Assembly: GCA_037431425.1 (NCBI GenBank)
Contig: GCA_037431425.1_4129.1
DNA from: a phage
Length of the DNA stretch: 64,000 nucleotides
Direction: 5' to 3' (one strand)
A program made the position numbers and the translations under genes. Positions 49,860-64,000 of the stretch are shown here, one piece after another. Under the pieces are notes generated by a model that did not search any database, was not told the DNA's origin, and saw only the letters and a list, made by a program, of their open reading frames with translations. Position 1 is the stretch's first letter. Each line of letters opens with the position of its first letter.

Positions 49860-49900
49860 ATTTCCCTCCTTTATTCATTATACTATATTTAATACTAAAA
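49860..49900 (-). promoter_or_regulatory. conserved leader/promoter box
   Basis: minus strand GTATTAAATATAGTATAATGAATAAAGGAGGGAAATATG; TATAAT at 49877-49882; no -35. Confidence 0.55.
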
Positions 49901-49925
49901 GAAAAAGCCAGTACAGAGTACTGGC
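49901..49925 (-). terminator. rho-independent terminator
   Basis: GCCAGTAC..AGTACTGGC plus T-run on minus strand. Confidence 0.75.
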
Positions 49926-49931
49926 ATTATT

Positions 49932-51083: not shown

Positions 51084-51124
51084 ATTTCCCTCCTTTATTC
51101 ATTATACTATATTTAATACTAAAA
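51084..51124 (-). promoter_or_regulatory. conserved leader/promoter box
   Basis: identical to the 49860 copy. Confidence 0.55.
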
Positions 51125-51125
51125 G

Positions 51126-51150
51126 AAAAAGCCAGTACTTGAGTACTGGC
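51126..51150 (-). terminator. rho-independent terminator
   Basis: GCCAGTACTTGAGTACTGGC (two AGTACT) with flanking A and T runs. Confidence 0.75.
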
Positions 51151-51157
51151 TTTCTTA

Positions 51158-52348: not shown

Positions 52349-52386
52349 ATCCCCTCCTTATTCATTATACTATATTTAATCAAAAA
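52349..52386 (-). promoter_or_regulatory. conserved leader/promoter box
   Basis: minus strand ..AAATATAGTATAATGAATAAGGAGGGGATATG. Confidence 0.55.
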
Positions 52387-52387
52387 T

Positions 52388-52410
52388 AAAAGCCAGTATC
52401 AAGTACTGGC
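52388..52410 (-). terminator. rho-independent terminator
   Basis: GCCAGTATCAAGTACTGGC. Confidence 0.7.
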
Positions 52411-52424
52411 ATAGTTTTATAATA

Positions 52425-53531
52425 TTATTTCGGCATCGTAATTGCAGACCATGAATTTGTAGTAATTGGACCTGGTATGTACACTAAAGAACCACATGCA
52501 TAAATTTGTCTATTCCCATCATACACAACACTAAAGTTAGTACAAGTAAACAATGACGAATTTAATGGATTGTAAGTATCTAATGTTAGTGTATTCACCC
52601 ACTTATTTGAACCTAGACCACCTGACCTACCAAATGCACCAGTACTGTATATCTTACCTTCAGTTGTTGCATATATATTAACATATGAAGTTGAACTGGA
52701 TTTAGCTATTTTATGTATCTTACTATCAATAGCACTGGAGTTAAATGTAAAAGGATATATTTCTACGTTAGTTGATGAACCATTACCGAGTTGACCAGAA
52801 TACTGCAAGCCAGCGACGTATGTACCACCACCTGAATATGCTATAGTACTAGTACTGTTACCTCCCATTATTTTAACACTAGTTAAACGACTTACTAAAG
52901 TAGTGTACTGACCTTTACTAACACCTAGTGAACCATAACTACTAGTACCACATCCAATAAGGTTACCGTTGGATGTTAAGATTAATGTGTTGTTTTGTGT
53001 ACCATATATATCAGCAACTTCATTTGTACCAGTATTCAGTACTAACACAAAAGCACTCTGTGAATTAGGATATCCACCACCGAGTGAATAGTTACTGTTC
53101 ATGCCTCTTCCATAAACCTTTGTACCACTAGCATCTACGTAGTGCATCGTATCTGAACCAATTGATATCATTTTAATATTAGATATGTGTGGAAATGAAG
53201 AAGTAACATCTAAACCACCCAAGGGGATTGCAGTATTACCCGTACCTAACTGAGAAGTAACTCCGTGCATTCTGAACTCTTCTCCTTTGAGATACAGAAG
53301 ATTGTACCCACCAGCCCATGCATCAGAAACACCCTCTGCAACTAATATCCAATTATTTTTTTCCGCTGTACCAACGGCATTCAACTGCCAATATGAATTA
53401 TCTCCACATCCATATAATGTACCATCACTATATAGTACGTACAAATTATTGGTTCCACAAAATACTTTCTTGATCGTTATACCTTCTGGAGCTATATTTC
53501 CATAGGTCATTATTCTTGCAAAAGGTAACAT
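52425..53531 (-). CDS. RCC1-like repeat beta-propeller protein, 368 aa
   Basis: MLPFARIMTYGNIAP; LYGCGDNSYWQLN, LIGCGTSSYGSLGV. Confidence 0.8.
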   Translation of the reverse strand: MLPFARIMTYGNIAPEGITIKKVFCGTNNLYVLYSDGTLYGCGDNSYWQLNAVGTAEKNNWILVAEGVSDAWAGGYNLLYLKGEEFRMHGVTSQLGTGNTAIPLGGLDVTSSFPHISNIKMISIGSDTMHYVDASGTKVYGRGMNSNYSLGGGYPNSQSAFVLVLNTGTNEVADIYGTQNNTLILTSNGNLIGCGTSSYGSLGVSKGQYTTLVSRLTSVKIMGGNSTSTIAYSGGGTYVAGLQYSGQLGNGSSTNVEIYPFTFNSSAIDSKIHKIAKSSSTSYVNIYATTEGKIYSTGAFGRSGGLGSNKWVNTLTLDTYNPLNSSLFTCTNFSVVYDGNRQIYACGSLVYIPGPITTNSWSAITMPK

Positions 53532-53570
53532 ATCCCCTCCTTATTCATTATACTATATTTAATACAAATA
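53532..53570 (-). promoter_or_regulatory. conserved leader/promoter box
   Basis: same box as other copies. Confidence 0.55.
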
Positions 53571-53572
53571 AG

Positions 53573-53595
53573 AAAAGCCAGTATCAAGTACTGGC
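53573..53595 (-). terminator. rho-independent terminator
   Basis: GCCAGTATCAAGTACTGGC. Confidence 0.7.
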
Positions 53596-53601
53596 CTATA
53601 T

Positions 53602-54771
53602 TTAAACTGGCGAATCTAATATAAATTCTAAACTACTAATGCCACCATATGTGACATCTGTTCCCGTGCTATATACAAAATTACCATCAGTTATATAAGT
53701 TCGGTTATAACTACCTGCCATCTGTGACTTACTATAATCAAACCCATCAGGTACGATTGCTTTGGTATATACTAATGCATTAGTAGATGTACCAATACCT
53801 AACATACCAGCTTGTGTAGATTGATTGTAGCCGCAACAATATATACCATCTGTTGTAGCAATAACTTGGTTATAATATGAAGTATTGTTAGCAATGCTTA
53901 CTACATCACCAGGTGGCATTAGTGATGCTGTTTGTACCTCAAATGCTCTATAATCTTTGAGAGAACCATCTTTCCCATCTGCTTGTGCACCAAATATTCT
54001 TGAACCACCATTTGCGATGATAGTTTTACCAGTAGGATCAGTGCCTATTGCCATTGCCATTGAAGTACCATTATTCACATAGTACTTTATATTAATTGTA
54101 TTACTTAAGCTGGTAGGAGCACCATAATATATATTATATAACTTACTTCCTGAACTTGTAACTGCATTGACTCTTCCTGTATAAAATAACCATCCTTGGT
54201 TTGTAACATAACCGTGCATTAAATTACTTGCAAACAATTTAACAGGTAATTGATTTGCTACGGTAGGAACAGTACTTTTGACGAATCTACCAGAAACATA
54301 GTTAATTGTTGTTCCATCACCCAACTGACCATCCGACCCTACTCCAGTACTCCATATTGTTTGGTCTGATAGTAACACACTTGTAGTCTGATAACTAATG
54401 GCTATATCTAATATTGGTAATGTTAATGTATTGAATATAGGCATAGCAGATGTCCATATTGATACTCCTGACCCTTTCATACCAACAGTTGTTGAACTTC
54501 CACTGTACCATATTTCATTATTGCTTTTCTTAACAACTATCGACGTGGCTCCCATCCAAAAATCTTCAACACCAGAAGTACTAAAAGTCCATGTAGTAAC
54601 AGTATTTTTGTGACCTAAACCCAAAATACCATATGCATTATCACCACGCACATATAAATCACCACTGTTTGTTAAAACAGCAACATTATCGTTGTTAGCA
54701 AGTATTTTTTTAATATTTGGTTTAGCAGGTGCAATATTCCCGTACTTAACCATCCTCGCAAAAGGTAACAA
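53602..54771 (-). CDS. RCC1-like repeat beta-propeller protein, 389 aa
   Basis: TTG start with GGAGA SD and non-conserved leader; LYVRGDNAYGILGLGHK, IWSTGVGSDGQLGDG. Confidence 0.8.
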   Translation of the reverse strand: MLPFARMVKYGNIAPAKPNIKKILANNDNVAVLTNSGDLYVRGDNAYGILGLGHKNTVTTWTFSTSGVEDFWMGATSIVVKKSNNEIWYSGSSTTVGMKGSGVSIWTSAMPIFNTLTLPILDIAISYQTTSVLLSDQTIWSTGVGSDGQLGDGTTINYVSGRFVKSTVPTVANQLPVKLFASNLMHGYVTNQGWLFYTGRVNAVTSSGSKLYNIYYGAPTSLSNTINIKYYVNNGTSMAMAIGTDPTGKTIIANGGSRIFGAQADGKDGSLKDYRAFEVQTASLMPPGDVVSIANNTSYYNQVIATTDGIYCCGYNQSTQAGMLGIGTSTNALVYTKAIVPDGFDYSKSQMAGSYNRTYITDGNFVYSTGTDVTYGGISSLEFILDSPV

Positions 54772-54810
54772 AATTAAATCTCCAAAATTAAAATAATTAT
54801 ATAGTATTTA

Positions 54811-54843
54811 CAAAAATACCAGTACATATTTCAGTACTGGTAT
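54811..54843 (-). terminator. rho-independent terminator
   Basis: ACCAGTAC-ATATTTCA-GTACTGGT. Confidence 0.65.
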
Positions 54844-54847
54844 ATTA

Positions 54848-55969
54848 TTAAAAGGGCAACGGTAACTCAGTAAAAGAACTTACGTCCGGTAAACCATACA
54901 TTGAATTAGCATCACCACAGTAATACCACTTCGTAGAATCATGTACCACCGATAAACGCAGTGCACATAACACTTCCTGTATGTCATTAAACACCATCGG
55001 GACTAACTCATATGTATCTGCAAATGAAGATACACCACCACTCGCATGAAAAGTATTTGTCCCAGCATAAAATAACTGATTAGTGTTCTTACCCACAGCA
55101 AATGTAATCAAATTCCCATCATTCTCCCATAAAGAAGAAAACTTATCAACACTACCAGAAAGCTCTGTGTAAGTACTCGTAATGGCATTAACCGCCGCCG
55201 CATTACCCATCTGTTTATTCAAGTTCTGCCCAGCAATAAAATATCTCGTTCGTGCACTAGAATCAGTATATAATAACCCAGTGTTCGTGGTCATCATTCC
55301 AATGTCCTTAATCGTCATACCAGGCTGTGAATAACTTAGATACGAAGTTAAATTAACATTATTACCCAACGAACCGTTAGAACTCATGCCACAACGATGT
55401 AATATACCACTTGTATCAACGTAGATAGTACTAACACCACTCGTATACAACTCTTGTACATTATTCGCAATAAACACAGCAGTCGCCTTATTACTAACCC
55501 CACCAAATGATAGGTTATTATCAAATCCCTTAGCGTATAATTGATTATTAGTAGTCAATAATCCAATCGTGTAATAAGACATTTTCATATCCCTTACTGT
55601 ACTCAAATCTACTGCCCCAAATTGATACGTAACATCTGTCCATTTGAAAATCTGTGCACTACCAACACCACCCGTTTCAAACCATTTGTCACCACAGTAC
55701 AATATGCGATTATCCTTAGTAAAGATAACTGTTAACGCTCCACTACCACACGCAAACTTTACATCACTTCTAACCTTCGTCCAATCACGTACATAGGTAG
55801 TGGTGTTATTACCTATACCTAACTTGCCATAACGGTTATAACCACGCACCCATAAATCACCACTCTTAGTAATTAATAGTAATGCGTCTCCTGTACTTAT
55901 TATTCGAAATCCCGATCTAGGATCAGGTACAATATTCCCGTACTTAACCATTCTCCCAAAAGGTAACAT
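54848..55969 (-). CDS. RCC1-like repeat beta-propeller protein, 373 aa
   Basis: MLPFGRMVKYGNIVP; LWVRGYNRYGKLGIGNN. Confidence 0.8.
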   Translation of the reverse strand: MLPFGRMVKYGNIVPDPRSGFRIISTGDALLLITKSGDLWVRGYNRYGKLGIGNNTTTYVRDWTKVRSDVKFACGSGALTVIFTKDNRILYCGDKWFETGGVGSAQIFKWTDVTYQFGAVDLSTVRDMKMSYYTIGLLTTNNQLYAKGFDNNLSFGGVSNKATAVFIANNVQELYTSGVSTIYVDTSGILHRCGMSSNGSLGNNVNLTSYLSYSQPGMTIKDIGMMTTNTGLLYTDSSARTRYFIAGQNLNKQMGNAAAVNAITSTYTELSGSVDKFSSLWENDGNLITFAVGKNTNQLFYAGTNTFHASGGVSSFADTYELVPMVFNDIQEVLCALRLSVVHDSTKWYYCGDANSMYGLPDVSSFTELPLPF

Positions 55970-56008
55970 AATTCCCTCCTTTATTCATTATATCATATTT
56001 ACCCAAAA
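55970..56008 (-). promoter_or_regulatory. conserved leader/promoter box (first gene of array)
   Basis: minus strand ..AAATATGATATAATGAATAAAGGAGGGAATTATG. Confidence 0.55.
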
Positions 56009-56013
56009 AACAC

Positions 56014-56042
56014 TTGACACCCTTTCAGTACTGTTGTACGAT
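56014..56042 (+). promoter_or_regulatory. promoter TTGACA-N17-TACGAT with AGTACT in spacer
   Basis: divergent from the RCC1 array; drives the small-gene array. Confidence 0.6.
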
Positions 56043-56067
56043 AGAAGGAATATTAGGAGAACTACAC

Positions 56068-56295
56068 ATGACAAATACCCTTAAGTACTACCTCAATACT
56101 CTGCCCGACCTAGAGTACGGGAAGTTTCTCGCAGATAGTTCGTGGCTGATTGAGCTAAAAACACATAACAGCCCTGGATGCACCCTTATGATGAACAATG
56201 CTATTGATACCCTTATAGTGAGTATTTTACATAGCAATATCTACAAGGATAACAATAAACAATTAACAAAAATATTAGTACTGCTATCTCTATGA
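56068..56295 (+). CDS. small tandem-array protein, 75 aa
   Basis: trimmed to ATG 56068 with AGGAGA SD; KYYLNTLP N-terminal pattern. Confidence 0.65.
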   Translation: MTNTLKYYLNTLPDLEYGKFLADSSWLIELKTHNSPGCTLMMNNAIDTLIVSILHSNIYKDNNKQLTKILVLLSL

Positions 56296-56495
56296 ATATC
56301 GAACAGTTCTACATCAATGCACTACCAACTAAAAGTCTTCAAGAAAGCCTACTGTATACACAAAAGAATTTTAAAAACTTCAAACGTTGCCCTAAACTAC
56401 TGAACTCGTACATGAATAATATCATAAGAAATGTTTTACAAGGAGAAGAAAGTATGCAATACTATCACATCATTATCCTTATATTGGAGTACTAA
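56292..56495 (+). CDS. small tandem-array protein, 67 aa
   Basis: ATGA coupling; EQFYINALP; ends ..ILILEY. Confidence 0.65.
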   Translation: MNIEQFYINALPTKSLQESLLYTQKNFKNFKRCPKLLNSYMNNIIRNVLQGEESMQYYHIIILILEY

Positions 56496-56496
56496 T

Positions 56497-56706
56497 ATGA
56501 ATACCGAACATAAAGAATTCTACACCAAATACCTCAGCAACGAAGAACAATTGTTTCTAAGAAGTGTATCACCTTTACGTATAGATACACCACACGCCAG
56601 AGAATGCTTTAATAATTGTATACGTAGTACCCTAGAAGCAATCGAATATAATAACAAAAATATTATGTACTCCAGTTTAATCGGACTAATATACTTCTAT
56701 GAATAA
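56497..56706 (+). CDS. small tandem-array protein, 69 aa
   Basis: GTACTAATATG junction; HKEFYTKYLS; paralogue of 59716. Confidence 0.65.
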   Translation: MNTEHKEFYTKYLSNEEQLFLRSVSPLRIDTPHARECFNNCIRSTLEAIEYNNKNIMYSSLIGLIYFYE

Positions 56707-56890
56707 TCATAAAGATTTCTATTGCAGTAAACTACACAAACAATACAGAGATTCATTTCCCAATGAACCTATGGATATGAATAGTCCCTTTTATAACTTT
56801 GACTTCAGACTGGAGACACGTTATGCAATAGAACATCAATTTCCTGAAACTAAGTACTTATCTATCATGAACCTCATCTTTAAGTTCTAA
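56699..56890 (+). CDS. small tandem-array protein, 63 aa
   Basis: HKDFYCSKL; paralogue of 59918. Confidence 0.6.
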   Translation: MNNHKDFYCSKLHKQYRDSFPNEPMDMNSPFYNFDFRLETRYAIEHQFPETKYLSIMNLIFKF

Positions 56891-56942
56891 AAGGTGCACC
56901 AAGGACAGAGTATTTTAATATAGTAAGGCTAATTACACTACC

Positions 56943-57128
56943 ATGAATCACATAAGCTACTACTACCAACAACTATCCGACAGAGACAAGTACAGTCACA
57001 ACTCCCATGTGTGGTACTACAAACGCGGCAGTATAAGAGACAAACATCATTACTTCAGTGCTGCTATAACAGAAGTACTAACAACTAAGTACACGTACAG
57101 AGCAGTACTGAAACTTATCTCTATATAA
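56943..57128 (+). CDS. small tandem-array protein (LKLISI subtype), 61 aa
   Basis: ends AVLKLISI. Confidence 0.65.
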   Translation: MNHISYYYQQLSDRDKYSHNSHVWYYKRGSIRDKHHYFSAAITEVLTTKYTYRAVLKLISI

Positions 57129-57136
57129 GGTACTAT

Positions 57137-57322
57137 ATGAATACATTTGAGTACTATACCAATAAACTATCTATGCCTGAAAGATCTCATCTCTATGTGT
57201 GGAGAAATGCGTATAAAAACGGAAATAAACTTATACAAAGAAATTCCCTTACAGTGTGTACCAATTTAATTAACGCAGAGTACCGCACATATATTGAAGT
57301 ACTGAAACTCATCTCTATCTAA
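57137..57322 (+). CDS. small tandem-array protein (LKLISI subtype), 61 aa
   Basis: MNTFEYYTNKL..EVLKLISI. Confidence 0.65.
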   Translation: MNTFEYYTNKLSMPERSHLYVWRNAYKNGNKLIQRNSLTVCTNLINAEYRTYIEVLKLISI

Positions 57323-57330
57323 GGTACTCT

Positions 57331-57510
57331 ATGCAAGAATTCTATATCTATAATCTCCAGCACAAAGATAGATACAACTATAATCAATTCCAAAGGTACT
57401 ACACCGTCGGGAACATCAAAGATAAAAAACGATACCTACTATCATGTACTGTAGATGCACAAAACAAAAAGTACACGTACAGAGAAGTACTGAAACTAAT
57501 TTCTATTTGA
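57331..57510 (+). CDS. small tandem-array protein (LKLISI subtype), 59 aa
   Basis: hand-translated MQEFYIYNLQ..EVLKLISI; below track cut-off. Confidence 0.6.
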   Translation: MQEFYIYNLQHKDRYNYNQFQRYYTVGNIKDKKRYLLSCTVDAQNKKYTYREVLKLISI

Positions 57511-57518
57511 GGTAATAT

Positions 57519-57707
57519 ATGAATACTTTTGAGTACTACTTCAATAAACTAAATTCCATAGAACAAAATATGTACAATTCATATATTAAGTACTATCAAT
57601 CATCTGCACCTGGAATTAAAAATATATCAATAAAGATTATCACTAACCGTGTACTGACATCTGAACGTTATATGTATATGGATGCACTGAAACTCATCTC
57701 TATGTAA
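57519..57707 (+). CDS. small tandem-array protein (LKLISI subtype), 62 aa
   Basis: MNTFEYYFNKL..DALKLISM. Confidence 0.65.
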   Translation: MNTFEYYFNKLNSIEQNMYNSYIKYYQSSAPGIKNISIKIITNRVLTSERYMYMDALKLISM

Positions 57708-57717
57708 GGAATAAACT

Positions 57718-57897
57718 ATGAACAATTTCTATATAGAACACATAACCATAAAAGACCGTTTCATGTACGACACCTTCGTGAAGTACTACAACCTCGCAAC
57801 TAACAGTACTAAAAATATCAATCTCAATAGCTGCATACACCAAGCACTAACAAAAGAAAATCCCTTCAGGGAAATCCTTGCACTTGCATCTGTATAA
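57718..57897 (+). CDS. small tandem-array protein (LKLISI subtype), 59 aa
   Basis: hand-translated MNNFYIEHIT..EILALASV; below track cut-off. Confidence 0.55.
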   Translation: MNNFYIEHITIKDRFMYDTFVKYYNLATNSTKNINLNSCIHQALTKENPFREILALASV

Positions 57898-57907
57898 AGG
57901 AATTCAA

Positions 57908-58573
57908 ATGAAACTTAATCCACAAAGTAAACAATACCTTAAGCACTTTAAGTACCTCAACAGTATTCAAGCAGAATCTATTACATCTTCTTATACTTAT
58001 CACCCGAATATACTAAAGAAACGAAATAAAAAGAATAAATCCAGTACAGATCTAGTATCAAAGAACCTCAAATCGTACTTGAAGAAAAATAATATCTCTA
58101 TTCATTGTGCGAATATCTATAATACTGATTTAAAAGCATTGAGTACTAATACCAGCACAAAAACACTAAAGAATACATCTATCTATATCTATATGCACCT
58201 GGATAATATCCCGTGCACTATAATTCTATCTTTCGGGAATGTATACTTCTTCGGGAATTGTAATACCACCCATGATATCCGTACAGCACAATTCCAAATC
58301 GGAGATATGTACTGCATGGGTTCAGAAAAAATACACGATAACATGCATTTCTTCCAACAGCAACGTACAGAAGAAACTAATACAGTACTAGAATTCCTCA
58401 AAGAACTTCAAAACAAAGAATTATCTCAAGAAGAACTATTCATGTACAGCACCGTAATCAATAATCCAGAACTCTACAAAAACGCGTACAATCTAACAAA
58501 ACATGTGCAGGAACTTATTAGTACTAATAAGAAAATTCATCACCTCATGACATATATTGCAAACTATGCATAA
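57908..58573 (+). CDS. long-form EE-x-F-x-ST family protein, 221 aa
   Basis: trimmed to ATG 57908 with AAGGA SD; basic N-terminus; motif SQEELFMYSTV. Confidence 0.7.
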   Translation: MKLNPQSKQYLKHFKYLNSIQAESITSSYTYHPNILKKRNKKNKSSTDLVSKNLKSYLKKNNISIHCANIYNTDLKALSTNTSTKTLKNTSIYIYMHLDNIPCTIILSFGNVYFFGNCNTTHDIRTAQFQIGDMYCMGSEKIHDNMHFFQQQRTEETNTVLEFLKELQNKELSQEELFMYSTVINNPELYKNAYNLTKHVQELISTNKKIHHLMTYIANYA

Positions 58574-58751
58574 AGAATACTACCAAAATAAACTCCCAAT
58601 GCATCTACAACACCTTGTACCAACAGAACCATTGGGTATAGAAAAAGACTACGAAAAAGACTACTTCATTAAGTGCACCAAATCCTCAATAGATATTGAG
58701 GACTATAATCGAGTACTGTATCACATCCTTTTACTAATATATAAGTACTAA
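58566..58751 (+). CDS. small tandem-array protein (IYRY subtype), 61 aa
   Basis: MHKEYYQNKLPMHLQHL..LLLIYKY. Confidence 0.65.
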   Translation: MHKEYYQNKLPMHLQHLVPTEPLGIEKDYEKDYFIKCTKSSIDIEDYNRVLYHILLLIYKY

Positions 58752-58752
58752 T

Positions 58753-58947
58753 ATGAATAATGAATACTATAAAGAATACTACCAAAATAAACTCCCTATG
58801 TATCTACAACACCTTATACCAACAAAACCTATTGGCATAAAAGATCATGAAAAAATAATGTTCCAACAATGTTCTAAGTACATCCTAATAGACGATCACA
58901 ATCCATATATGCTGTACTATATAATAATGCTAACATTCAGGTACTAA
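58753..58947 (+). CDS. small tandem-array protein (IYRY subtype), 64 aa
   Basis: KEYYQNKLPMYLQHL..IMLTFRY. Confidence 0.65.
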   Translation: MNNEYYKEYYQNKLPMYLQHLIPTKPIGIKDHEKIMFQQCSKYILIDDHNPYMLYYIIMLTFRY

Positions 58948-58948
58948 T

Positions 58949-59131
58949 ATGCACAAAGAATACTACACACAATTTCTCCCCAGTATATTTGAACACTACG
59001 CCAGATATAAAGTCCCACTGGATAACGATTTGGCAGTACTCGGATTCAATAACTGCATAGAACGCAGTATAGAAAATAGTAGTTCATATGACCAACTATA
59101 TAACACTATCCTACTTATATTCAGGTACTAA
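58949..59131 (+). CDS. small tandem-array protein (IYRY subtype), 60 aa
   Basis: MHKEYYTQFLP..ILLIFRY. Confidence 0.65.
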   Translation: MHKEYYTQFLPSIFEHYARYKVPLDNDLAVLGFNNCIERSIENSSSYDQLYNTILLIFRY

Positions 59132-59132
59132 T

Positions 59133-59321
59133 ATGTTTAAAGAATACTACGCAAAATATTTCCCAATGTATCTCAGAACTAATCTATTAGATAAACCTCG
59201 CGATATCAATGCTCAAAACGATAAAGTGTACTTTATTATGTGCACTAAAGCATGTATACTAGATCATGACAGCTACCATCGAGTACTCTATCATACACTG
59301 TACCTAACATTCGTGTACTAA
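59133..59321 (+). CDS. small tandem-array protein (IYRY subtype), 62 aa
   Basis: trimmed to ATG 59133; MFKEYYAKYFPMYL..LYLTFVY. Confidence 0.65.
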   Translation: MFKEYYAKYFPMYLRTNLLDKPRDINAQNDKVYFIMCTKACILDHDSYHRVLYHTLYLTFVY

Positions 59322-59331
59322 AGAGAACATT

Positions 59332-59526
59332 ATGCAACACAAGTTCAAAGAATTCTACTTAAGCCGCCTGGAACTAAACTCCCAAATGCTTATACCACTA
59401 AAACCAATAGATATCAAGGATAAGAAAAATACCCAACAATTCATCTACCATACACAGTGTGCTATCTCCCCAGATTATAATACATATAAATTGTACTATA
59501 TCATCGCCCTAATACTCAGGTACTAA
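59332..59526 (+). CDS. small tandem-array protein (IYRY subtype), 64 aa
   Basis: FKEFYLSRL..IALILRY. Confidence 0.65.
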   Translation: MQHKFKEFYLSRLELNSQMLIPLKPIDIKDKKNTQQFIYHTQCAISPDYNTYKLYYIIALILRY

Positions 59527-59528
59527 TC

Positions 59529-59714
59529 ATGTATAAAGAATACTACACACAATTTGTTAAAGAAAACTACAAATATGCCGTCCCCATAAAACCCTTAAAT
59601 GCTAATGACCCAAATACTATATTCCTGTTTAATGACGCAATACGTACAGTACTCAATACTAAAGATGAACAAGTGCAGTACGTATTCTTACTTTTACTTA
59701 TATACAGACACTAA
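59529..59714 (+). CDS. small tandem-array protein (IYRY subtype), 61 aa
   Basis: MYKEYYTQFV..LLLLIYRH. Confidence 0.65.
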   Translation: MYKEYYTQFVKENYKYAVPIKPLNANDPNTIFLFNDAIRTVLNTKDEQVQYVFLLLLIYRH

Positions 59715-59715
59715 T

Positions 59716-59925
59716 ATGAATAAAGTACATAAAGAATTCTATTCCAGATACCTCAGCCTATCAGAACAAATGTTTATAAGATCTACACCACCATTAAGTA
59801 CTGATACTTACTTCGGTAGAGTATGCTACAATAAATGTGTACAAATGACTTTAAACGCAAACGACAATAATAACAGTACTAACCTGTACTCAGGCATCAT
59901 AGGTATACTATTTCTATATGATTAA
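59716..59925 (+). CDS. small tandem-array protein, 69 aa
   Basis: trimmed to ATG 59716; HKEFYSRYLS; paralogue of 56497. Confidence 0.65.
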   Translation: MNKVHKEFYSRYLSLSEQMFIRSTPPLSTDTYFGRVCYNKCVQMTLNANDNNNSTNLYSGIIGILFLYD

Positions 59926-60100
59926 AGAATATAAAGACTTCTACATAAGAAAACTAACATTCGTCCCCGTAAGAATATACAAAGAATGCGACCCAAGATT
60001 ATACCTATGGCACTTCAATGAGTGCATAAAAGATTCTATATACCCTAAGAACTATAAAGAACAATTGTGCTCAGTACTAACACTAGTACTATCATATTAA
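59918..60100 (+). CDS. small tandem-array protein, 60 aa
   Basis: YKDFYIRKL; paralogue of 56699. Confidence 0.6.
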   Translation: MIKEYKDFYIRKLTFVPVRIYKECDPRLYLWHFNECIKDSIYPKNYKEQLCSVLTLVLSY

Positions 60101-60113
60101 TAGAGATAATACT

Positions 60114-60326
60114 ATGAATAAAGAACATAAAAACTTCTATATAAGTAAACTAAAAGAAAATGAACAAGTATGGATTAGATCTATAATAGAACTGGCATTT
60201 AATAGATACGCACTGAATAGATGTACACAGATTGCTATAGACCCTTATCCCATTGAAGAGGATGAAAAGGATGTACAGTACAATCAGTACTACTATATCT
60301 TAATGCTTATATATAGACCTATATAG
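60114..60326 (+). CDS. small tandem-array protein, 70 aa
   Basis: HKNFYISKL..LMLIYRPI; last gene before the noncoding region. Confidence 0.65.
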   Translation: MNKEHKNFYISKLKENEQVWIRSIIELAFNRYALNRCTQIAIDPYPIEEDEKDVQYNQYYYILMLIYRPI

Positions 60327-60340
60327 GAAACTACACAGGC

Positions 60341-60423
60341 GAATTGCTAAAATTCAGCCTGCTATACGTCTGAATTGTTAAAATTCAGCCTGCTATACGT
60401 CTGAATTGTTAAAATTCAGCCTG
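60341..60423. repeat. 31-bp direct tandem repeat, 2.7 copies
   Basis: GAATTG(C/T)TAAAATTCAGCCTGCTATACGTCT at 60341, 60372, and partial at 60403; each unit contains the inverted repeat TGAATT..AATTCA. Confidence 0.9.
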
Positions 60424-60467
60424 GACAAATGCGATCACCAGGATTCTCTCCAGGCTAAACACCGTAG

Positions 60468-60534
60468 TCATAAGTAATCATAAGTAATCATATATAAACA
60501 TTTATATGAGCATTTATAAGCATTTATAAGCACC
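60468..60534. repeat. short tandem decamers
   Basis: CATAAGTAAT x2.5, then GCATTTATAA x2, each block flanked by ACCGTAG. Confidence 0.75.
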
Positions 60535-61027
60535 GTAGAATCACAGAATGATTATATATGATTCAGTACTGCCCCAAAAGTATTCAGTACTGAAGAATTA
60601 CCCCTGAATGATTCAGTACTGATATGCCACTAAGTAGGCAGAGGAAGTCTGCCGTACTTTGTAGTTTCCAAGCTCCTTTTCCATTTTGCAAATTACATCA
60701 AATGTAATCAAAAGTAATCACGTAATGATTAGTACTGAAATATTAGTTTCATCTTTTTTCAAATACCTTTTTACCCTTCGGGGTAAATGTATTTTTACCC
60801 ATTTACCTTTGGGGTAAAATCCCATTACCCCTTGAGGCTCCAGCAAAAAGTTGGAAAGTACTCCATCCTAAATCTCGATCCTAAAAATTTTGGAGTACCT
60901 ATGAAATAAAAGTTGGATCTTCGAAAGTTGAAATTTACGTTGGGACGTTTATGATTTGTGGGATATAATGATGTTTGTAGTCGGGTAGTTCTCAAGAATA
61001 TCAGTACTGAATGGTGAAAGAAAGTTA

Positions 61028-61055
61028 TTGACATTATGATTCAGTACTGTATAAT
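61028..61055 (+). promoter_or_regulatory. promoter TTGACA-N16-TATAAT with AGTACT in spacer, inside ORF-free region
   Basis: read directly; downstream has GNRA hairpin CTGTC-GTGA-GACAG and no ORF. Confidence 0.6.
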
Positions 61056-61435
61056 GTTCTACATAGAGAGATGAGTTGCTGCGAACAATTCATTTACTCT
61101 ACCTCCTGTCGTGAGACAGTACAGAAAAGATAGTTCCTCCTGTGGTGGTACATCTTTTTGAACCTCATATGAAAATCGTAATAACAGTACTGGTATTAAC
61201 AGAATGGTATCAGTACTGACTTTAATCTAATACATTATACCACCAGCTTGTGCTGGTGGATTCCCTCTAACAGTATTCAGTACTACATGATAGTCTTCAT
61301 CCTCCTAGGGTAACATAGTGAGGGCTATTGTGGGAGTACTGAATACTCCTTTCAAAAGATAGAATAATGGTATAGTACCGACGGATTTTGGGCGTAGTTA
61401 CCCTGGGTGTATTTTGGACGTAGATATGTCTAGCC

Positions 61436-61578
61436 CTCCAGAAGTCTGGAAGTAAAGATGGCTATCTATCTAGACGGCTAAACGGCTAGATTTCTAGATG
61501 GCTGTATGGCTAGACGTTTGGATGGCTAAACGGCTAAACGGCTAGATGGTTACACGTCTGGAAGTATAGACGGCTAAA
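61436..61578. repeat. iteron block: 8 GGCTA cores bracketed by direct repeats GTCTGGAAGTA
   Basis: GGCTA at 61460, 61476, 61484, 61508, 61524, 61532, 61540, 61572 (consensus ACGGCTAAA/ACGGCTAGA); GTCTGGAAGTA at 61444-61454 and 61556-61566. Confidence 0.85.
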
Positions 61579-61927
61579 TCAAAATTTTTATTTTGTTTTT
61601 CCAATAGTTCCCCTACCGCGTGAGGATATTTTTTCCCCGCAGTATCTGGAGTTAGATTTTTCTGAATCTGGAATCATTATCTAATAAACTGGGGGCAATG
61701 TCAACCGCCTGGATGAATATTTTTAAAAAATAATCTAGTACTAAATTTTGGGCGTAACTATGCACCCGGTGGGCTTGAGTCTTTCTCGACTTGATGAAAT
61801 AATTATATCAGTACTGAAAAAATAAAGCAATACCCTAAACGCAAAAAAAATTTAATTAATTTGCTTGCTATTCTGGGCCGTACTATGGTACTATTAATTC
61901 AGTACTGAGAAAGTGCTTTTACCTGCT

Positions 61928-61999
61928 AGGGTGCGGGAGTGTATCCTTTTTAAATTTTATGAATTTTGGGCAGATCTCCGCACCCTGTGGGTTAGTGCC
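61928..61999. repeat. GC-rich dyad element (long hairpin), copy A
   Basis: AGGGTGCGGGAG ... CTCCGCACCCT arms around an AT-rich 45-nt core; shares the 16-mer GGTGCGGGAGTGTATC with the 63898 copy. Confidence 0.7.
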
Positions 62000-62210
62000 T
62001 TGTGTCCGGCTTATGTAGTAATTATACGCTTTTTCAGTACTGAGTCAATACCTAAAAACAAAATAATTGAAAATAATTTAACGCGTTTAAACGGCCCGTA
62101 AAGCCCTGGAATGATTAGAATGGTGCAAATGTATAGCTTAGGTGTAATATCTCGTTAGAATGCGACTGAGGCCGTTTTACGGGGTATAGGGATGATTTAG
62201 TGGATTGATT

Positions 62211-62298
62211 CAGTACTGAATAATAGTACTCCTATATAGAAAGATAGTTCCCCTGGATGGTTGCAGTACTGAATAATAGTACTCCTATATAGAAAGAA
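62211..62298. repeat. 35-bp direct repeat x2
   Basis: CAGTACTGAATAATAGTACTCCTATATAGAAAGA at 62211 and 62264. Confidence 0.85.
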
Positions 62299-62329
62299 AA
62301 CTATTTTAAAAAGTATTTGTAGAAAGTAC

Positions 62330-62388
62330 TTGCACCGTACTGATAAAAGCGTATAATGTTTTACATCGAGAGCGGGAGCACTTCCCGC
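62330..62388 (+). promoter_or_regulatory. conserved promoter plus 5' hairpin cassette, copy 1
   Basis: TTGCAC-N16-TATAAT, then TTTTACATCGAGAGCGGGAGCACTTCCCGC (stem GCGGGA/TCCCGC). Confidence 0.7.
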
Positions 62389-62412
62389 TACACATTAAGA
62401 GAGATTAAAACG

Positions 62413-62775
62413 ATGGCGACTCAAATCAATAAAATTATTGCTAACCTGGTTAACTTCCGTGAAGAGATGAAAGGTCTTCCGGCTGAAACGGTAAAAATTC
62501 ACATTTCAGCTTATCGGGAACTTATTGCAATGTTACCGCTTAAGCGTGAACAATACGCCGCTACCGTGATGCTTGATGCGATGATCAATAAGATGATCGC
62601 CAGTGATTTAACGATGGTTTATCAGTACATGGGCGAAAATTTCGCGGTGTCTGGTAAGCCAGTACCAGGGATGGCAACTACTGAGGAATTGCACGGTTTA
62701 AATTTAAAACAAGATGCATGGGATAATATGCCTCGTTTCCTGGTATGGGCTGACAGTGGCAAAATTTACAAATAA
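62413..62775 (+). CDS. hypothetical protein, 120 aa
   Basis: trimmed to ATG 62413 (MATQINK) downstream of the cassette; higher GC than the rest of the window. Confidence 0.75.
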   Translation: MATQINKIIANLVNFREEMKGLPAETVKIHISAYRELIAMLPLKREQYAATVMLDAMINKMIASDLTMVYQYMGENFAVSGKPVPGMATTEELHGLNLKQDAWDNMPRFLVWADSGKIYK

Positions 62776-62789
62776 GTTTAATAAAGTAC

Positions 62790-62875
62790 TTGCCAACTAA
62801 GTTTAAAAGCGTATAATACTTTACATCAGGTGCAACGGGAAGTTTAAAAACTTCCCTATAGGGGAATAGTTCCCC
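62790..62875 (+). promoter_or_regulatory. promoter plus 5' hairpin cassette, copy 2 (variant)
   Basis: TTGCCA-N16-TATAAT; hairpins GGGAAG..CTTCCC and GGGGA-ATAGT-TCCCC. Confidence 0.65.
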
Positions 62876-62896
62876 ACTATATAAGAGGATTAAAAA

Positions 62897-63136
62897 ATGG
62901 CTAAATCAAAAATGTTCTTAGGTCACAAAAACAAAACTCATTGGAATGTAAGCCTTTGGATTAATAACGATGAATCATTATACCGGTTGGCCCTGGACTT
63001 TATTGCCGCTAATACTAATCGCAATGATGCGGCCCGTCATATGATGTTATTTTTAGAACAGACTGGACAAGATAAAACACCGGACGGATTCAAATATAGC
63101 ACTACTGCGATCCGTGCGGCGATGGTTGGAATGTAA
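62897..63136 (+). CDS. hypothetical protein, 79 aa
   Basis: AGAGGA SD. Confidence 0.75.
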   Translation: MAKSKMFLGHKNKTHWNVSLWINNDESLYRLALDFIAANTNRNDAARHMMLFLEQTGQDKTPDGFKYSTTAIRAAMVGM

Positions 63137-63149
63137 TAGAATTTATTTA

Positions 63150-63184
63150 AAGTACTATCGCAAAAAATGATAGTACTTTATAAT
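63150..63184 (+). promoter_or_regulatory. AGTACT-based hairpin abutting TATAAT
   Basis: AAGTACTATC..GATAGTACTT stem followed directly by TATAAT. Confidence 0.5.
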
Positions 63185-63221
63185 AGTGTTTTATTCATAC
63201 ACCAACGATAAGGGCAATAGC

Positions 63222-63488
63222 ATGAATATTAAGTATTTTGCGACGCGTGAACAAGCTCGGAAGGCGGCGAAAGTGGAAGGTGCAACGTTTAAAGATATGG
63301 GCATACAATCGGAACGTGGTAAACGTTGGGCCATTGTAAAGCGTAGTACAGCCAGATCATTACAGTACTGGTTAGCGGCTTTAAAAAGTCCTGCTAGTGT
63401 ATCGCGTCGAGTGGTAGAAATAAAGCTCGACCGTAAGGGGAATCGTGTTACCGTGTACCGTACTAAAAAGATAGCAGTACTTGAATAA
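63222..63488 (+). CDS. basic hypothetical protein, 88 aa
   Basis: trimmed to ATG 63222 with AAGGG SD. Confidence 0.7.
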   Translation: MNIKYFATREQARKAAKVEGATFKDMGIQSERGKRWAIVKRSTARSLQYWLAALKSPASVSRRVVEIKLDRKGNRVTVYRTKKIAVLE

Positions 63489-63495
63489 AAAGAAC

Positions 63496-63554
63496 TTGCA
63501 AACTATGTTTAATGGCGTATAATGTTTTACATCGAGAGCGGGAACACTTCCCGC
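63496..63554 (+). promoter_or_regulatory. conserved promoter plus 5' hairpin cassette, copy 3
   Basis: TTGCAA-N16-TATAAT, then TTTTACATCGAGAGCGGGAACACTTCCCGC; near-identical to copy 1. Confidence 0.7.
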
Positions 63555-63575
63555 CTATAAACTGGAGTAATAAAA

Positions 63576-63806
63576 ATGACTAATATGTATATGACTGAAG
63601 TTAAAACCGTAAAAGATACTACCACGAATAAAACTACTTACTTACAGCGGATCTGCGGTGTATGGCAACGTATCAGCAAATCAAAGTACTATAAATTAAC
63701 ATCATATGCCAATCGTTCGGATTCATTCAGTACTGAAATAAAAGGTAATAAAGTACACCAATACGGCACTTATTATTATTATAGCCTGGACGCGATTGCA
63801 GTATAA
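63576..63806 (+). CDS. hypothetical protein, 76 aa
   Basis: GGAG SD. Confidence 0.7.
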   Translation: MTNMYMTEVKTVKDTTTNKTTYLQRICGVWQRISKSKYYKLTSYANRSDSFSTEIKGNKVHQYGTYYYYSLDAIAV

Positions 63807-63836
63807 GTAGTTTACAAATCTTTACAATTGCCGGTA

Positions 63837-63865
63837 TTGACTTAAAATGTCAGTACTGGCATAAT
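63837..63865 (+). promoter_or_regulatory. promoter TTGACT-N17-CATAAT with AGTACT in spacer
   Basis: read directly; transcribes GC-rich dyad copy B. Confidence 0.55.
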
Positions 63866-63885
63866 GTATCTATTGAAACGAACAA

Positions 63886-63966
63886 TTTGGCCCACGGGGT
63901 GCGGGAGTGTATCTATAGCAAAATTAGTTTAGTATAATTACAATTGTGCACCCGGTGGGTTAGCTG
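63886..63966. repeat. GC-rich dyad element, copy B
   Basis: CCCACGGGGTGC (63891-63902) pairs with GCACCCGGTGGG (63948-63959), 11/12; same 16-mer as copy A. Confidence 0.7.
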
Positions 63967-64000
63967 TTGTCATGGGGTATATTATGCCAGTACTTGATAA

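What the first reader, a model, noticed from the sequence alone, without database searches (positions are those of the whole stretch)
61436..61578. Iteron-like block: eight GGCTA cores in 117 bp, bracketed by an 11-bp direct repeat
GGCTA, with consensus ACGGCTA(A/G)A, occurs 8 times exactly plus one GGCTG variant between 61460 and 61576, with irregular spacing of 8-32 bp. The block is framed by GTCTGGAAGTA at 61444 and 61556. The left copy is part of the palindrome CCAGAAGTCTGG. Chance expectation for 8 copies of a 5-mer in 117 bp is far below one. This is a classical arrangement for initiator (Rep) or small-terminase binding arrays.
Basis: seen in the sequence. Interest (0 to 1): 0.6.

Follow-up and report, generated by a model that had tools for sequence, protein, structure and literature searches.

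The report
Giant MetJ repressor-binding array in phage
The "iteron" block is a head-to-tail run of about 17 eight-base sites that match the binding site of the host's methionine/SAM-sensing repressor MetJ; it lies 0.8 kb inside the end of a jumbo coliphage genome, and similar arrays occur in unrelated phages of MetJ-bearing bacteria, which suggests these phages exploit this host protein.

Summary
In detail: eight GGCTA plus one GGCTG on the + strand in 117 bp, about 0.04 expected. The spacing is not irregular. Every copy sits on one 8-bp register.

Read in that register, 61424-61575 is 19 contiguous octamers (AGACGGCT, AAACGGCT, AGATGGCT, ACACGTCT...). Seventeen pass the published weight matrix for the E. 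coli MetJ "metbox" (consensus AGACGTCT), and 15 of them are uninterrupted. It is the only MetJ-type site in the 64-kb window. Per box it scores like the real metJ/metB and metF operators, but it is 3-4 times longer.

The window is an Asteriusvirus (PBECO4/121Q-like) jumbo coliphage. By homology to fEgEco12, the array lies about 0.8 kb inside the left end of the ~21-kb direct terminal repeat.

Equivalent arrays occur in other jumbo genera, in T5-like and T7-like phages, and in Pseudoalteromonas PH1 and Vibrio D164. All but one have hosts in MetJ-bearing orders. No phage encodes MetJ, and no binder gene is shared between lineages.

Rep iterons and terminase sites are not supported. The best reading is a host MetJ·SAM super-operator. 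I infer that it acts as a MetJ sink. An end-linked cis role is the main rival. No binding data exist.

The parts
61424..61575 (+). Metbox array. Nineteen contiguous 8-bp slots: ATATGTCT agccctcc AGAAGTCT ggaagtaa AGATGGCT ATCTATCT AGACGGCT AAACGGCT AGATTTCT AGATGGCT GTATGGCT AGACGTTT GGATGGCT AAACGGCT AAACGGCT AGATGGTT ACACGTCT GGAAGTAT AGACGGCT. Seventeen slots pass the MetJ box threshold (124.5 bits). All boxes have the same polarity (GGCT half on the + strand).
   Evidence: PWM from PMC3228920 applied; 8-bp periodicity.
61456..61575 (+). Uninterrupted core of 15 boxes (107.3 bits, mean 7.15 bits per box). This is the only site in the 64-kb window that meets the published MetJ-site criteria.
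   Evidence: The other seven registers give 0-2 passing boxes. In 200 Markov-1 simulations of the window the longest run was 3 boxes.
61576..61599 (.). A/T-rich tract (22 of 24 bases A or T) directly after the last box. A T-rich tract follows the array in all jumbo genera compared.
61599..61620 (+). Element TTCCAATAGTTCCCCTACCGCG. It follows the array in Asteriusvirus, Eneladusvirus and Mimasvirus (TTCCATTAG(T/C)TCCCCTTCCGCG). Function unknown. The ATAGTTCCCC core recurs in 5' leaders of nearby early genes.
61384..61406 (+). Element GATTTTGGGCGTAGTTACCCTGG just upstream of the array. It is conserved across jumbo genera (GAATTTTGGGTGTACTATCCCT) and related copies lie at 61411, 61745 and 61962. 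Function unknown.
   Evidence: (families D13, D18).
60633..60653 (+). Context: predicted left physical genome end and start of the direct terminal repeat (AGTA|GGCAGAggaagTCTGCC, a hairpin at 60637-60653). This places the array 0.79-0.94 kb inside the end.
   Evidence: fEgEco12 has a 20,993-bp DTR defined by PhageTerm and restriction mapping. Its two DTR copies are identical. Alignment to the window is; the hairpin is.
61028..61055 (+). Context: consensus sigma-70-type promoter-like site (TTGACA-16-TATAAT) firing towards the array from about 400 bp upstream. The -35 is conserved across genera.
61676..61704 (-). Context: promoter-like site (TTGACA-17-GATAAT) on the minus strand. It would fire leftward into the array from about 100 bp downstream. 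No promoter-like site overlaps the array itself.

Best explanation
The block is a tandem array of host MetJ binding sites (metboxes): a super-operator of 17 boxes, 15 of them contiguous. It lies in the terminal repeat of an Asteriusvirus jumbo coliphage.

Established for MetJ (from the literature, not tested here): each MetJ homodimer binds one 8-bp box, operators are tandem runs of two or more boxes, and S-adenosylmethionine (SAM) is the cofactor.

Inferred for this array: in a SAM-replete E. coli cell, about 15-17 MetJ·SAM dimers coat roughly 130-150 bp of phage DNA. The site lies 0.8 kb inside the genome's left end and is repeated in the right terminal repeat. It holds more boxes than any host operator checked here.

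Most likely consequence (inference, about 0.4 of my belief): the array acts as a sink. One virion genome carries about 34 boxes, and replication multiplies them. MetJ is drawn off the roughly ten host operators, and methionine/SAM biosynthesis and uptake genes are derepressed for the phage's benefit.

Second possibility (about 0.3): the MetJ-coated segment acts in cis near the genome end, as a roadblock or architectural element for transcription, DNA entry or packaging.
For: SHOWN:
(1) All repeats share one 8-bp register.
(2) With the published MetJ matrix and site rules (PMC3228920), the whole 64-kb window has one site: 61456-61575, 15 boxes, 107.3 bits, mean 7.15 bits per box.
(3) Positive control: the same scan of 6.1 kb of E. 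coli K-12 finds only the metJ/metB operator (4 boxes, 31.2 bits) and the metF operator (4 boxes, 24.9 bits).
(4) Specificity: the true matrix column order is the best of 40,320 permutations, and 0 of 200,000 randomised matrices reach the observed fit.
(5) The box logo agrees with the host matrix at positions 1-5, 7 and 8, including the T8/A1 junction.
(6) Arrays persist through sequence turnover. Eight Asteriusvirus genomes have 14-21 passing boxes; Serratia BF, Erwinia pEa12, XbC2, CBB and GAP32 have 13-14. The register is kept throughout, so indels are multiples of 8.
(7) The same arrays occur in unrelated phages: T5-like Vibrio, Aeromonas and Providencia phages (8-28 boxes; PR1 reads GGACGTCT AAACGTCT...), T7-like PGT2 (9 boxes), Pseudoalteromonas PH1 (about 34), and Vibrio D164 (19 + 17).
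(8) A synthetic query built only from host-type metboxes retrieves 55 phage records. All but one (Xanthomonas phage XbC2) have host genera in Enterobacterales, Vibrionales, Aeromonadales or Alteromonadales (only Pseudoalteromonas was looked up, the other assignments are my own knowledge). MetJ exists only in those orders plus Pasteurellales.
(9) No phage record encodes MetJ. No protein is shared among array-flanking ORFs of the three lineages. The ten flanking window ORFs scanned have no DNA-binding domain hit.

FOR THE SINK READING (inference): no promoter-like site overlaps the array. The distance to the nearest repeat boundary differs between lineages (38 bp, about 0.8 kb). Box number varies from 8 to about 34. 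Hosts have about 10 MetJ sites each (over 2000 sites in 206 species).
Against: - There are no binding or expression data for any phage array.
- Box position 6 is G in 46-57% of jumbo and T5-like boxes (7 of 9 in PGT2), against about 10% in host boxes. All boxes in an array share one polarity, which a symmetric dimer does not require.
- Xanthomonas phage XbC2 keeps a 14/16-box array, although Xanthomonadales lack MetJ.
- Perfect 8-bp microsatellites with similar units exist in bacteria that lack MetJ, so a resembling octamer alone is not proof.
- Against the sink role: T5-like phages degrade host DNA early (my own knowledge), so derepressing host genes would gain them little.
- Also against it: wherever ends or terminase genes are known, arrays lie in end-proximal or first-entering DNA, and the 0.65-0.76-kb distance from the end is kept across jumbo genera. 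Both points hint at a cis role.
Confidence: 0.7

Rival explanations
1. Same binder, different purpose. The MetJ·SAM-coated segment acts in cis as an end-proximal nucleoprotein element. It could be a transcription or replication roadblock at the junction between genome units, a host-factor scaffold for terminase (as IHF is at lambda cosB), or part of a DNA-entry pause or anchor like the T5 injection-stop region.
For: Arrays lie near genome ends or packaging genes wherever these are known.
- Jumbo phages: 0.65-0.95 kb from the left DTR end.
- PGT2: bases 38-109 of an exact 260-bp DTR.
- Providencia PR1: 9620-9691, inside the 10,461-bp left repeat. The array is directly followed by CTCTGCGC, which resembles the T5 nick-1 motif CCCTGCGC, and is preceded by DnaA boxes.
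- Vibrio D164: between an HNH gene and a Terminase_4 small-subunit gene.

The window array sits between convergent promoter-like sites. The T5 injection-stop region is already proposed to work through a host protein, DnaA (10.1101/866236).
Against: The distance to the repeat boundary is not conserved between lineages, and the array lies near the left boundary in some lineages and the right in others. Terminases of these phages are unrelated. Intrinsic terminators would be a simpler way to insulate transcription. RecBCD-type motors displace bound proteins (my own knowledge). T5 itself has no array.
Confidence: 0.3
2. The array is bound by a phage-encoded protein, for example a small ribbon-helix-helix protein or the small terminase subunit, and its resemblance to the MetJ box is coincidental or mimicry.
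For: Contiguous 7-8-bp repeats are typical of ribbon-helix-helix binders such as plasmid ParG and omega (my own knowledge). The terminal repeat encodes dozens of tiny proteins of unknown function. The G bias at position 6 and the uniform polarity depart from the host logo. XbC2 keeps the array on a host order without MetJ.
Against: At least five unrelated phage lineages would each need a protein with the same specificity. No homologous ORF is shared near the arrays. The ten flanking window ORFs scanned have no DNA-binding domain hit. No MetJ homologue exists in 50,697 phage records. Host distribution tracks MetJ. Providencia and Pseudoalteromonas phage arrays use canonical GGACGTCT/AAACGTCT boxes.
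Confidence: 0.12
3. One reading: iterons of a replication origin bound by a Rep-type initiator.
For: The site is a direct-repeat array with an adjacent A/T-rich tract (61576-61599) and a strong promoter-like site upstream. GC skew changes sign at about 60.1-60.9 kb, close by.
Against: The units are 8 bp and contiguous rather than 17-22 bp on helical phasing. No Rep-like gene was found among the flanking ORFs. There are no DnaA boxes in 60.3-62.4 kb. The same array occurs in phages with unrelated replication systems.
Confidence: 0.04
4. A selectively neutral 8-bp minisatellite produced by replication slippage.
For: Relatives differ by gain or loss of whole 8-bp units. Perfect 8-bp microsatellites with similar units occur in many bacteria.
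Against: The array is degenerate: 13 distinct units among 19 slots (counted from the listing), so it is not a recent expansion. It is retained at a syntenic position across three genera whose flanks are poorly conserved. Box quality is kept at 7-8 bits per box despite turnover. It recurs in unrelated phages of MetJ hosts.
Confidence: 0.04

Closest known systems
MetJ operators of the E. coli methionine regulon (e.g. metJ/metB, metF)
   Same: Contiguous 8-bp metboxes matching AGACGTCT, with comparable information per box (7.15 bits here; 6.2-7.8 in the metF and metJ/metB operators scanned). Degenerate boxes alternate with strong ones. T-A junctions separate the boxes.
   Different: The array has 15-17 boxes, against 4 in each of the two K-12 operators scanned here. 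It is not upstream of a met gene and overlaps no promoter-like site. It lies in a virulent phage's terminal repeat. G is strongly favoured at box position 6, and all boxes share one polarity.
Host-factor site clusters that bind or titrate a protein: DnaA boxes in the T5 injection-stop region (10.1101/866236), the E. coli datA locus (my own knowledge), and repeated decoy transcription-factor sites (PMC3322331)
   Same: A non-coding cluster of sites for a host DNA-binding protein, placed in a phage repeat or acting by sequestration. In Providencia phage PR1 and Vibrio phage PVo5 the metbox array lies close to DnaA boxes.
   Different: A different protein, MetJ, whose binding depends on SAM. No titration has been demonstrated. 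There are no DnaA boxes near the window array.
Ribbon-helix-helix centromere arrays of plasmids (TP228 parH/ParG; pSM19035 omega heptads) - my own knowledge
   Same: Many contiguous 7-8-bp sub-sites, each bound by one ribbon-helix-helix dimer, forming a coated filament.
   Different: No partition ATPase or ribbon-helix-helix gene was found among the flanking ORFs. The octamer matches MetJ, not ParG (ACTC-N4) or omega (WATCACW).
T7 SRL/SRR short-repeat arrays beside the terminal repeat, and lambda cosB with IHF - my own knowledge
   Same: Short repeats or host-factor sites within a few hundred bp of the DNA ends of non-permuted phages.
   Different: The T7 repeats have a different unit and period and no known binder. 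The lambda cosB host-factor (IHF) element is a single bend site, not a 15-box array.
Iteron origins
   Same: Direct repeats next to an A/T-rich tract.
   Different: Unit length and spacing differ. There is no initiator gene and there are no DnaA boxes.

Membership tests
MetJ operator (metbox array) | 8-bp unit matching the metbox matrix (consensus AGACGTCT) | tested here: met
   17 of 19 slots score at least 3.15 bits, with a mean of 7.3 bits. The true matrix is the best of 40,320 column permutations, and 0 of 200,000 random matrices do as well.
MetJ operator (metbox array) | Two or more boxes directly adjacent, on an 8-bp register with no spacer | tested here: met
   15 adjacent boxes at 61456-61575. 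The other seven registers give 0-2 passing boxes.
MetJ operator (metbox array) | The host encodes MetJ | tested here: met
   The closest relatives are E. coli phages. E. coli K-12 has metJ. MetJ is confined to five gammaproteobacterial orders, and phage arrays track four of them. One exception is XbC2.
MetJ operator (metbox array) | Overlaps the promoter of a methionine or SAM gene that it represses | tested here: not met
   No promoter-like site overlaps the array. There is no met gene nearby; the flanking ORFs have unknown function. The array is therefore metbox-like in sequence but not a classical operator in context.
MetJ operator (metbox array) | SAM-dependent binding by MetJ protein | not testable with these tools
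   Needs EMSA, footprinting or ChIP.
Iteron-type replication origin | Repeats of about 17-22 bp spaced on helical phasing | tested here: not met
   The units are contiguous and 8 bp long.
Iteron-type replication origin | Cognate initiator gene adjacent, and DnaA boxes | tested here: not met
   The ten flanking ORFs give no Pfam DNA-binding or Rep hits. There are no TTWTNCACA boxes between 55.4 kb and the window end.
Iteron-type replication origin | Adjacent A/T-rich unwinding element | tested here: inconclusive
   A 24-bp A/T-rich tract lies at 61576-61599. It is short, and unwinding was not tested.
Terminase recognition site (pac/cos) | Lies close to the physical genome end | tested here: met
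   0.79-0.94 kb from the end, inferred from fEgEco12.
Terminase recognition site (pac/cos) | Sequence specific to the phage's own small terminase lineage | tested here: not met
   The same octamer array occurs in jumbo, T5-like and T7-like phages and in a phage with a Terminase_4 small subunit.
Ribbon-helix-helix plasmid centromere (type Ib) | Adjacent partition ATPase and ribbon-helix-helix adaptor genes | tested here: not met
   None among the ORFs within about 2.4 kb upstream and 2.2 kb downstream. No plasmid carries a similar array.
Structured RNA | Match to a known RNA family, or one well-defined fold | tested here: not met
   Rfam finds nothing in 60000-64000. The ssDNA fold has z = -4.0 but a diffuse ensemble (MFE frequency 0.0002), as expected from quasi-palindromic boxes.

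The most novel reading that the evidence does not exclude
Phages of at least five unrelated lineages that infect MetJ-bearing Gammaproteobacteria carry giant MetJ operator arrays of 8 to about 34 boxes (a 36-box tandem of uncertain kind occurs in one IMG/VR contig). The lineages are Rak2-like jumbo myoviruses, T5-like siphoviruses, a T7-like podovirus, Pseudoalteromonas PH1 and Vibrio D164. The arrays lie in end-proximal DNA, and I infer that this DNA enters the cell first. They would be a portable, protein-free device for hijacking the host's SAM-sensing repressor. It could work as a non-coding 'auxiliary metabolic' element that derepresses methionine/SAM supply by titration, or as a SAM-gated nucleoprotein checkpoint at the genome end. 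In T5-like phages it lies in the long-unexplained injection-stop region, next to DnaA boxes and the nick-1-like motif.
Probability: 0.5. Interest if true: 0.85.

Novelty: new variant of a known kind. Interest (0 to 1): 0.75.

Why it matters
If MetJ binds these arrays, this would be a clear case of virulent phages carrying a large binding array for a host metabolic repressor with no phage protein involved.

- It would give a cheap, non-coding route to reprogramme methionine/SAM metabolism. SAM feeds DNA methylation, polyamine synthesis and several restriction and defence systems.
- It could equally couple events at the genome end to the host's SAM status.
- It gives a concrete, testable candidate component for the T5-type injection-stop region in Vibrio, Aeromonas and Providencia phages.
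- It shows that repeat blocks in phage terminal regions, usually written off as iterons or pac sites, can be decoded by scanning with host transcription-factor matrices.

I found no paper in the searchable library that links MetJ to these phages. That is absence of evidence in one library only.

Tried and rejected
- Rfam on 60000-64000: no match.
- Array against E. coli genomes and plasmids: no match.
- Full-text search for the octamers returned only primer noise.
- IMG/VR pattern scans mostly re-found CBB- and GAP32-like contigs, plus T5-like contigs and a 36-box AGATGTCY tandem in a contig with a gpA-type terminase.
It returned mainly perfect 8-bp microsatellites from taxa without MetJ. It says nothing about host chromosomes and is only a caution.
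- T5's DRD repeat (TGTGCAAATCCGACA) accompanies arrays in T5-like phages, and a related motif occurs in PH1, but GTGCAAAT is not enriched in the window.
- I considered that the ATAGTTCCCC element after the array marks a transcription start that the array would repress. Other copies lie inside 5' leaders, not at starts, so I dropped this.
- I considered RNA-level roles such as CsrA or Hfq sponges. The unit does not fit their motifs (my own knowledge), so I did not pursue this.
- A shared phage-encoded binder was not found.

Full report
**1. The observation.**
Reading 60800-62400 and searching for GGCTA confirm eight + strand copies at 61460, 61476, 61484, 61508, 61524, 61532, 61540 and 61572, and GGCTG at 61500. 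GGCTA is not enriched in the window as a whole: 38 matches on both strands against 48 expected. Outside the block the + strand has 20 copies, so about 0.04 are expected in 117 bp. The cluster is far beyond chance.

Tandem Repeats Finder reports periods of 8, 16 and 24, and the repeat finder lists copies every 8 bp. The two GTCTGGAAGTA "brackets" are 112 = 14x8 bp apart, so they are in-register units of the same array. CCAGAAGTCTGG is only an imperfect palindrome.

**2. Where the block lies.**
The surrounding 2.1 kb matches Asteriusvirus jumbo coliphages. The best match is ph0011 at 95.5%; PBECO4, 121Q, G17 and fEgEco12 follow at 86-91%. The block sits in a roughly 2-kb stretch (60326-62356) with no convincing ORF.

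fEgEco12 has 20,993-bp direct terminal repeats defined by PhageTerm and restriction digests (PMC13070987). Its two copies are identical. Aligned to the window, its first base corresponds to window 60633 (AGTAGGCAGAGGAAGTCTGCC, a terminal hairpin).

The block therefore lies 0.79-0.94 kb inside the left end of the terminal repeat, and would be present in both repeat copies of a virion genome. For this particular phage the end is inferred by homology. The window and fEgEco12 differ inside the block by an 8-bp insertion and an 8-bp deletion.

**3. The same array elsewhere.**
A sensitive blastn with the block found it in all Asteriusvirus records. In records that start at the physical end, the matching stretch lies at about 720-980.

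At 650-810 bp from the record start it also found an alignable array in other genera of the clade: Serratia BF and Erwinia pEa_SNUABM phages (Eneladusvirus), and CBB, XbC2 and GAP32 (Mimasvirus). Across these genera the first 650 bp are poorly conserved. The array and the element after it (TTCCATTAGTTCCCCTTCCGCG) are the best-conserved part.

Unexpectedly, the same octamer array also appeared in unrelated phages:
- T5-like Demerecviridae of Vibrio (Pontus), Aeromonas (AhSzq-1, AhP_Mru1) and later Providencia (PR1);
- the T7-like Escherichia phage PGT2.

Unrelated phages sharing one motif points to a host factor.

**4. Identification as MetJ boxes.**
Read from 61424, the block is: ATATGTCT agccctcc AGAAGTCT ggaagtaa AGATGGCT ATCTATCT AGACGGCT AAACGGCT AGATTTCT AGATGGCT GTATGGCT AGACGTTT GGATGGCT AAACGGCT AAACGGCT AGATGGTT ACACGTCT GGAAGTAT AGACGGCT.

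[quoted passage not shown] One homodimer binds each box (PMC3228920).

I applied the published weight matrix and site rules of Augustus and Spicer:
- The 64-kb window contains exactly one MetJ-type site, 61456-61575: 15 adjacent boxes, 107.3 bits, mean 7.15 bits per box. Two further in-register boxes lie at 61424 and 61440.
- The other seven registers give 0-2 passing boxes.
- 200 first-order Markov simulations of the window never exceed three adjacent boxes.
- As a positive control, the same scan of 6.1 kb of E. coli K-12 finds only the metJ/metB operator (4 boxes, 31.2 bits) and the metF operator (TTACATCT GGACGTCT AAACGGAT AGATGTGC; 24.9 bits).
- Any periodic sequence scores well with some matrix, so I permuted the matrix. 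The true column order is the single best of 40,320, and none of 200,000 randomised matrices of equal information reaches 7.15 bits per box.

The box logo of 107 jumbo-phage and 78 T5-like boxes agrees with the host matrix at positions 1-5, 7 and 8. Position 6 differs: G in 46-57% of phage boxes against about 10% in hosts.

**5. Independent support from distribution.**
- A synthetic 120-nt query assembled only from host-type boxes retrieved 55 phage records. Their hosts are Vibrio, Erwinia, Aeromonas, Providencia, Escherichia, Yersinia, Klebsiella, Pseudoalteromonas, Serratia, Pectobacterium and Salmonella, plus one Xanthomonas phage, XbC2.
- MetJ homologues exist only in Enterobacterales, Pasteurellales, Vibrionales, Aeromonadales and Alteromonadales. 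Pseudoalteromonas is Alteromonadales. Xanthomonadales have no MetJ.
- New lineages found this way are Pseudoalteromonas PH1 (about 34 boxes over 370 bp, many GGACGTCT) and Vibrio D164 (two arrays, 19 and 17 boxes).
- No phage record encodes a MetJ homologue. No ORF is shared between array-flanking regions of the three main lineages. The ten window ORFs flanking the array have no DNA-binding Pfam domain.
- These lineages are few, so the host association is suggestive rather than a statistic.

**6. Position in other phages.**
- PGT2 has an exact 260-bp terminal repeat with the array at bases 38-109.
- In Providencia PR1 the array (AGCCGTCT AAACGTCT GGACGTCT AAACGTCT AGATGGCT GGACGTCT AGATGGCT GGACGTCT AGACGTCC) lies at 9620-9691 of a 10,461-bp left repeat. 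Paired DnaA boxes lie just upstream. CTCTGCGC follows directly and resembles T5's annotated nick-1 motif CCCTGCGC. This corresponds to T5's "repeat region 3", the candidate injection-stop region, for which a DnaA-based model has been proposed (10.1101/866236). That preprint does not mention MetJ.
- T5 itself has no array.
- In Vibrio D164 the arrays lie between an HNH endonuclease gene and a Terminase_4 small-subunit gene.
- So wherever ends or terminase genes are known, arrays lie in end-proximal DNA. The distance to the boundary, and whether the near boundary is the left or the right one, differ between lineages.

**7. How it most likely works.**
*Shown:* the sequence is a metbox array of operator quality and unprecedented length. 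It is conserved through sequence turnover and unit gain or loss.

*Inferred:* MetJ·SAM dimers coat about 130-150 bp.

*Function is not shown.* I favour a sink (about 0.4) for these reasons:
- no promoter-like site overlaps the array;
- the module works in unrelated genomes without a partner gene;
- box number is free to vary;
- a virion genome carries about 34 boxes, while hosts have about ten MetJ sites each. fEgEco12 has a 45-min latent period and a burst of 38, so replication would add many hundreds of boxes.

The main rival (about 0.3) is a cis role of the coated segment near the genome end, as a roadblock, a terminase scaffold or an entry pause. It is favoured by the end-proximal positions. 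It is also favoured because T5-like phages destroy host DNA early (my own knowledge).

Rep iterons, a phage-encoded binder and a neutral minisatellite are each unlikely, for the reasons given under the rival explanations.

**8. Caveats.**
- There are no binding data.
- The G bias at position 6 and the uniform polarity are unexplained. Possible causes are tandem-duplication ancestry, avoidance of perfect palindromes, or tuned affinity. The single strand still folds better than shuffles (z = -4.0) but without one defined structure.
- XbC2 is an exception to the host rule.
- Perfect 8-bp microsatellites with similar units occur in bacteria lacking MetJ.
- Literature searches in the available library found nothing that links MetJ to phage arrays. 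This does not prove novelty.

**9. Verdict.**
The block is best described as a giant MetJ operator-like array in the terminal repeat of a jumbo coliphage, one instance of a recurrent and apparently undescribed feature of phages infecting MetJ-bearing hosts.

Noticed in passing
window 61240-61259: CCACCAGC-TTGT-GCTGGTGG is a perfect hairpin made of the E. coli Chi octamer in both orientations. It lies about 610 bp inside the predicted left genome end and about 165 bp before the array. Only two other Chi sites occur in the 64 kb. It is conserved in fEgEco12. The copy nearer the end has the orientation that RecBCD entering from the left end would recognise (orientation rule from my own knowledge).
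   Followed up: partly
window 60633-60653: Predicted physical left end and start of the terminal repeat, by homology to fEgEco12. A hairpin GGCAGA-ggaag-TCTGCC begins 4 bases from the end. Termini of Serratia BF, XbC2 and CBB (TATCTTCTCCTGAAGTC...) share the GAAGTC core.
   Followed up: partly
window 60000-64000: CAGTACTG palindromes (often TTCAGTACTGAA) are concentrated here: 15 of 43 copies in the window. Several lie inside promoter spacers, for example TTGACAttatgatTCAGTACTGTATAAT at 61028-61055. They may be operators for an early-gene regulator. The AGTACT core resembles the SlmA binding site (my own knowledge, untested).
   Followed up: partly
window 48000-60900: GC skew is about +0.1 over 1-46 kb and -0.1 to -0.28 over 48-60 kb. 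It turns positive again at 60.1-60.9 kb, which is the predicted repeat start, although the ORFs on both sides (56.3-60.3 kb and 62.3-64 kb) are on the + strand.
   Followed up: no
window 60341-60532: Just outside the repeat on the unique side there is a 31-bp unit repeated 2.7 times (60341-60423) and two 10-bp repeat runs (60464-60532). fEgEco12 has only one copy of the 31-mer.
   Followed up: no
window 59088-60326: Six consecutive small ORFs of 60-108 aa on the + strand all match one PHROG of unknown function (phrog_11711). This is a tandem paralogue family ending just before the repeat boundary.
   Followed up: partly
window 62320-62388, 62780-62848, 63486-63554: A repeated promoter-plus-leader cassette (AAGTACTTGCA...GCGTATAATGTTTTACATC...) lies in front of each early gene of the repeat. 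The leader hairpin GGGGAATAGTTCCCC recurs, and its ATAGTTCCCC core also follows the array at 61604.
   Followed up: partly
L048 (Providencia phage PR1) 2380-2580; L049 (Vibrio PVo5) 3080-3400: In PR1 the metbox array lies between DnaA boxes and a GCGC motif that resembles the T5 7.9% nick site. In PVo5 a similar GCGC-containing motif and DnaA boxes flank the array in the reverse order. These positions fall inside the region equated with the T5 injection-stop signal.
   Followed up: partly
L176 (Pseudoalteromonas phage PH1) 2700-2900: Three copies of a ~57-bp repeat containing GAGTGCAAATCCACAC lie immediately upstream of the PH1 metbox arrays. The motif resembles T5 direct repeat D (TGTGCAAATCCGACA), which also accompanies arrays in T5-like phages.
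   Followed up: no
L177 (Vibrio phage D164) 623-790 and 2247-2398: Two metbox arrays (19 and 17 boxes) lie between an HNH endonuclease gene and a Terminase_4 small-subunit gene. In HK97-like phages this is where cos is expected (my own knowledge).
   Followed up: partly
L053, L059, L077, L092, L117 and other genome-contig loci: Perfect 8-bp microsatellites with units such as GAATGGCT, AGCCGTCC and GGACGGCT occur in Gemmatimonadales, Bacteroidota, Verrucomicrobiota and Streptomyces contigs. The search pattern selected for them, and their meaning is unknown.
   Followed up: no
L046 (IMG/VR contig 3300031658_004036) 7257-7544: 36 near-perfect AGATGTCC/AGATGTCT units (356 bits) lie in a 17-kb contig that encodes a gpA-type large terminase and a DUF5906 protein. 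This may be another metbox-type array or a plain microsatellite.
   Followed up: partly
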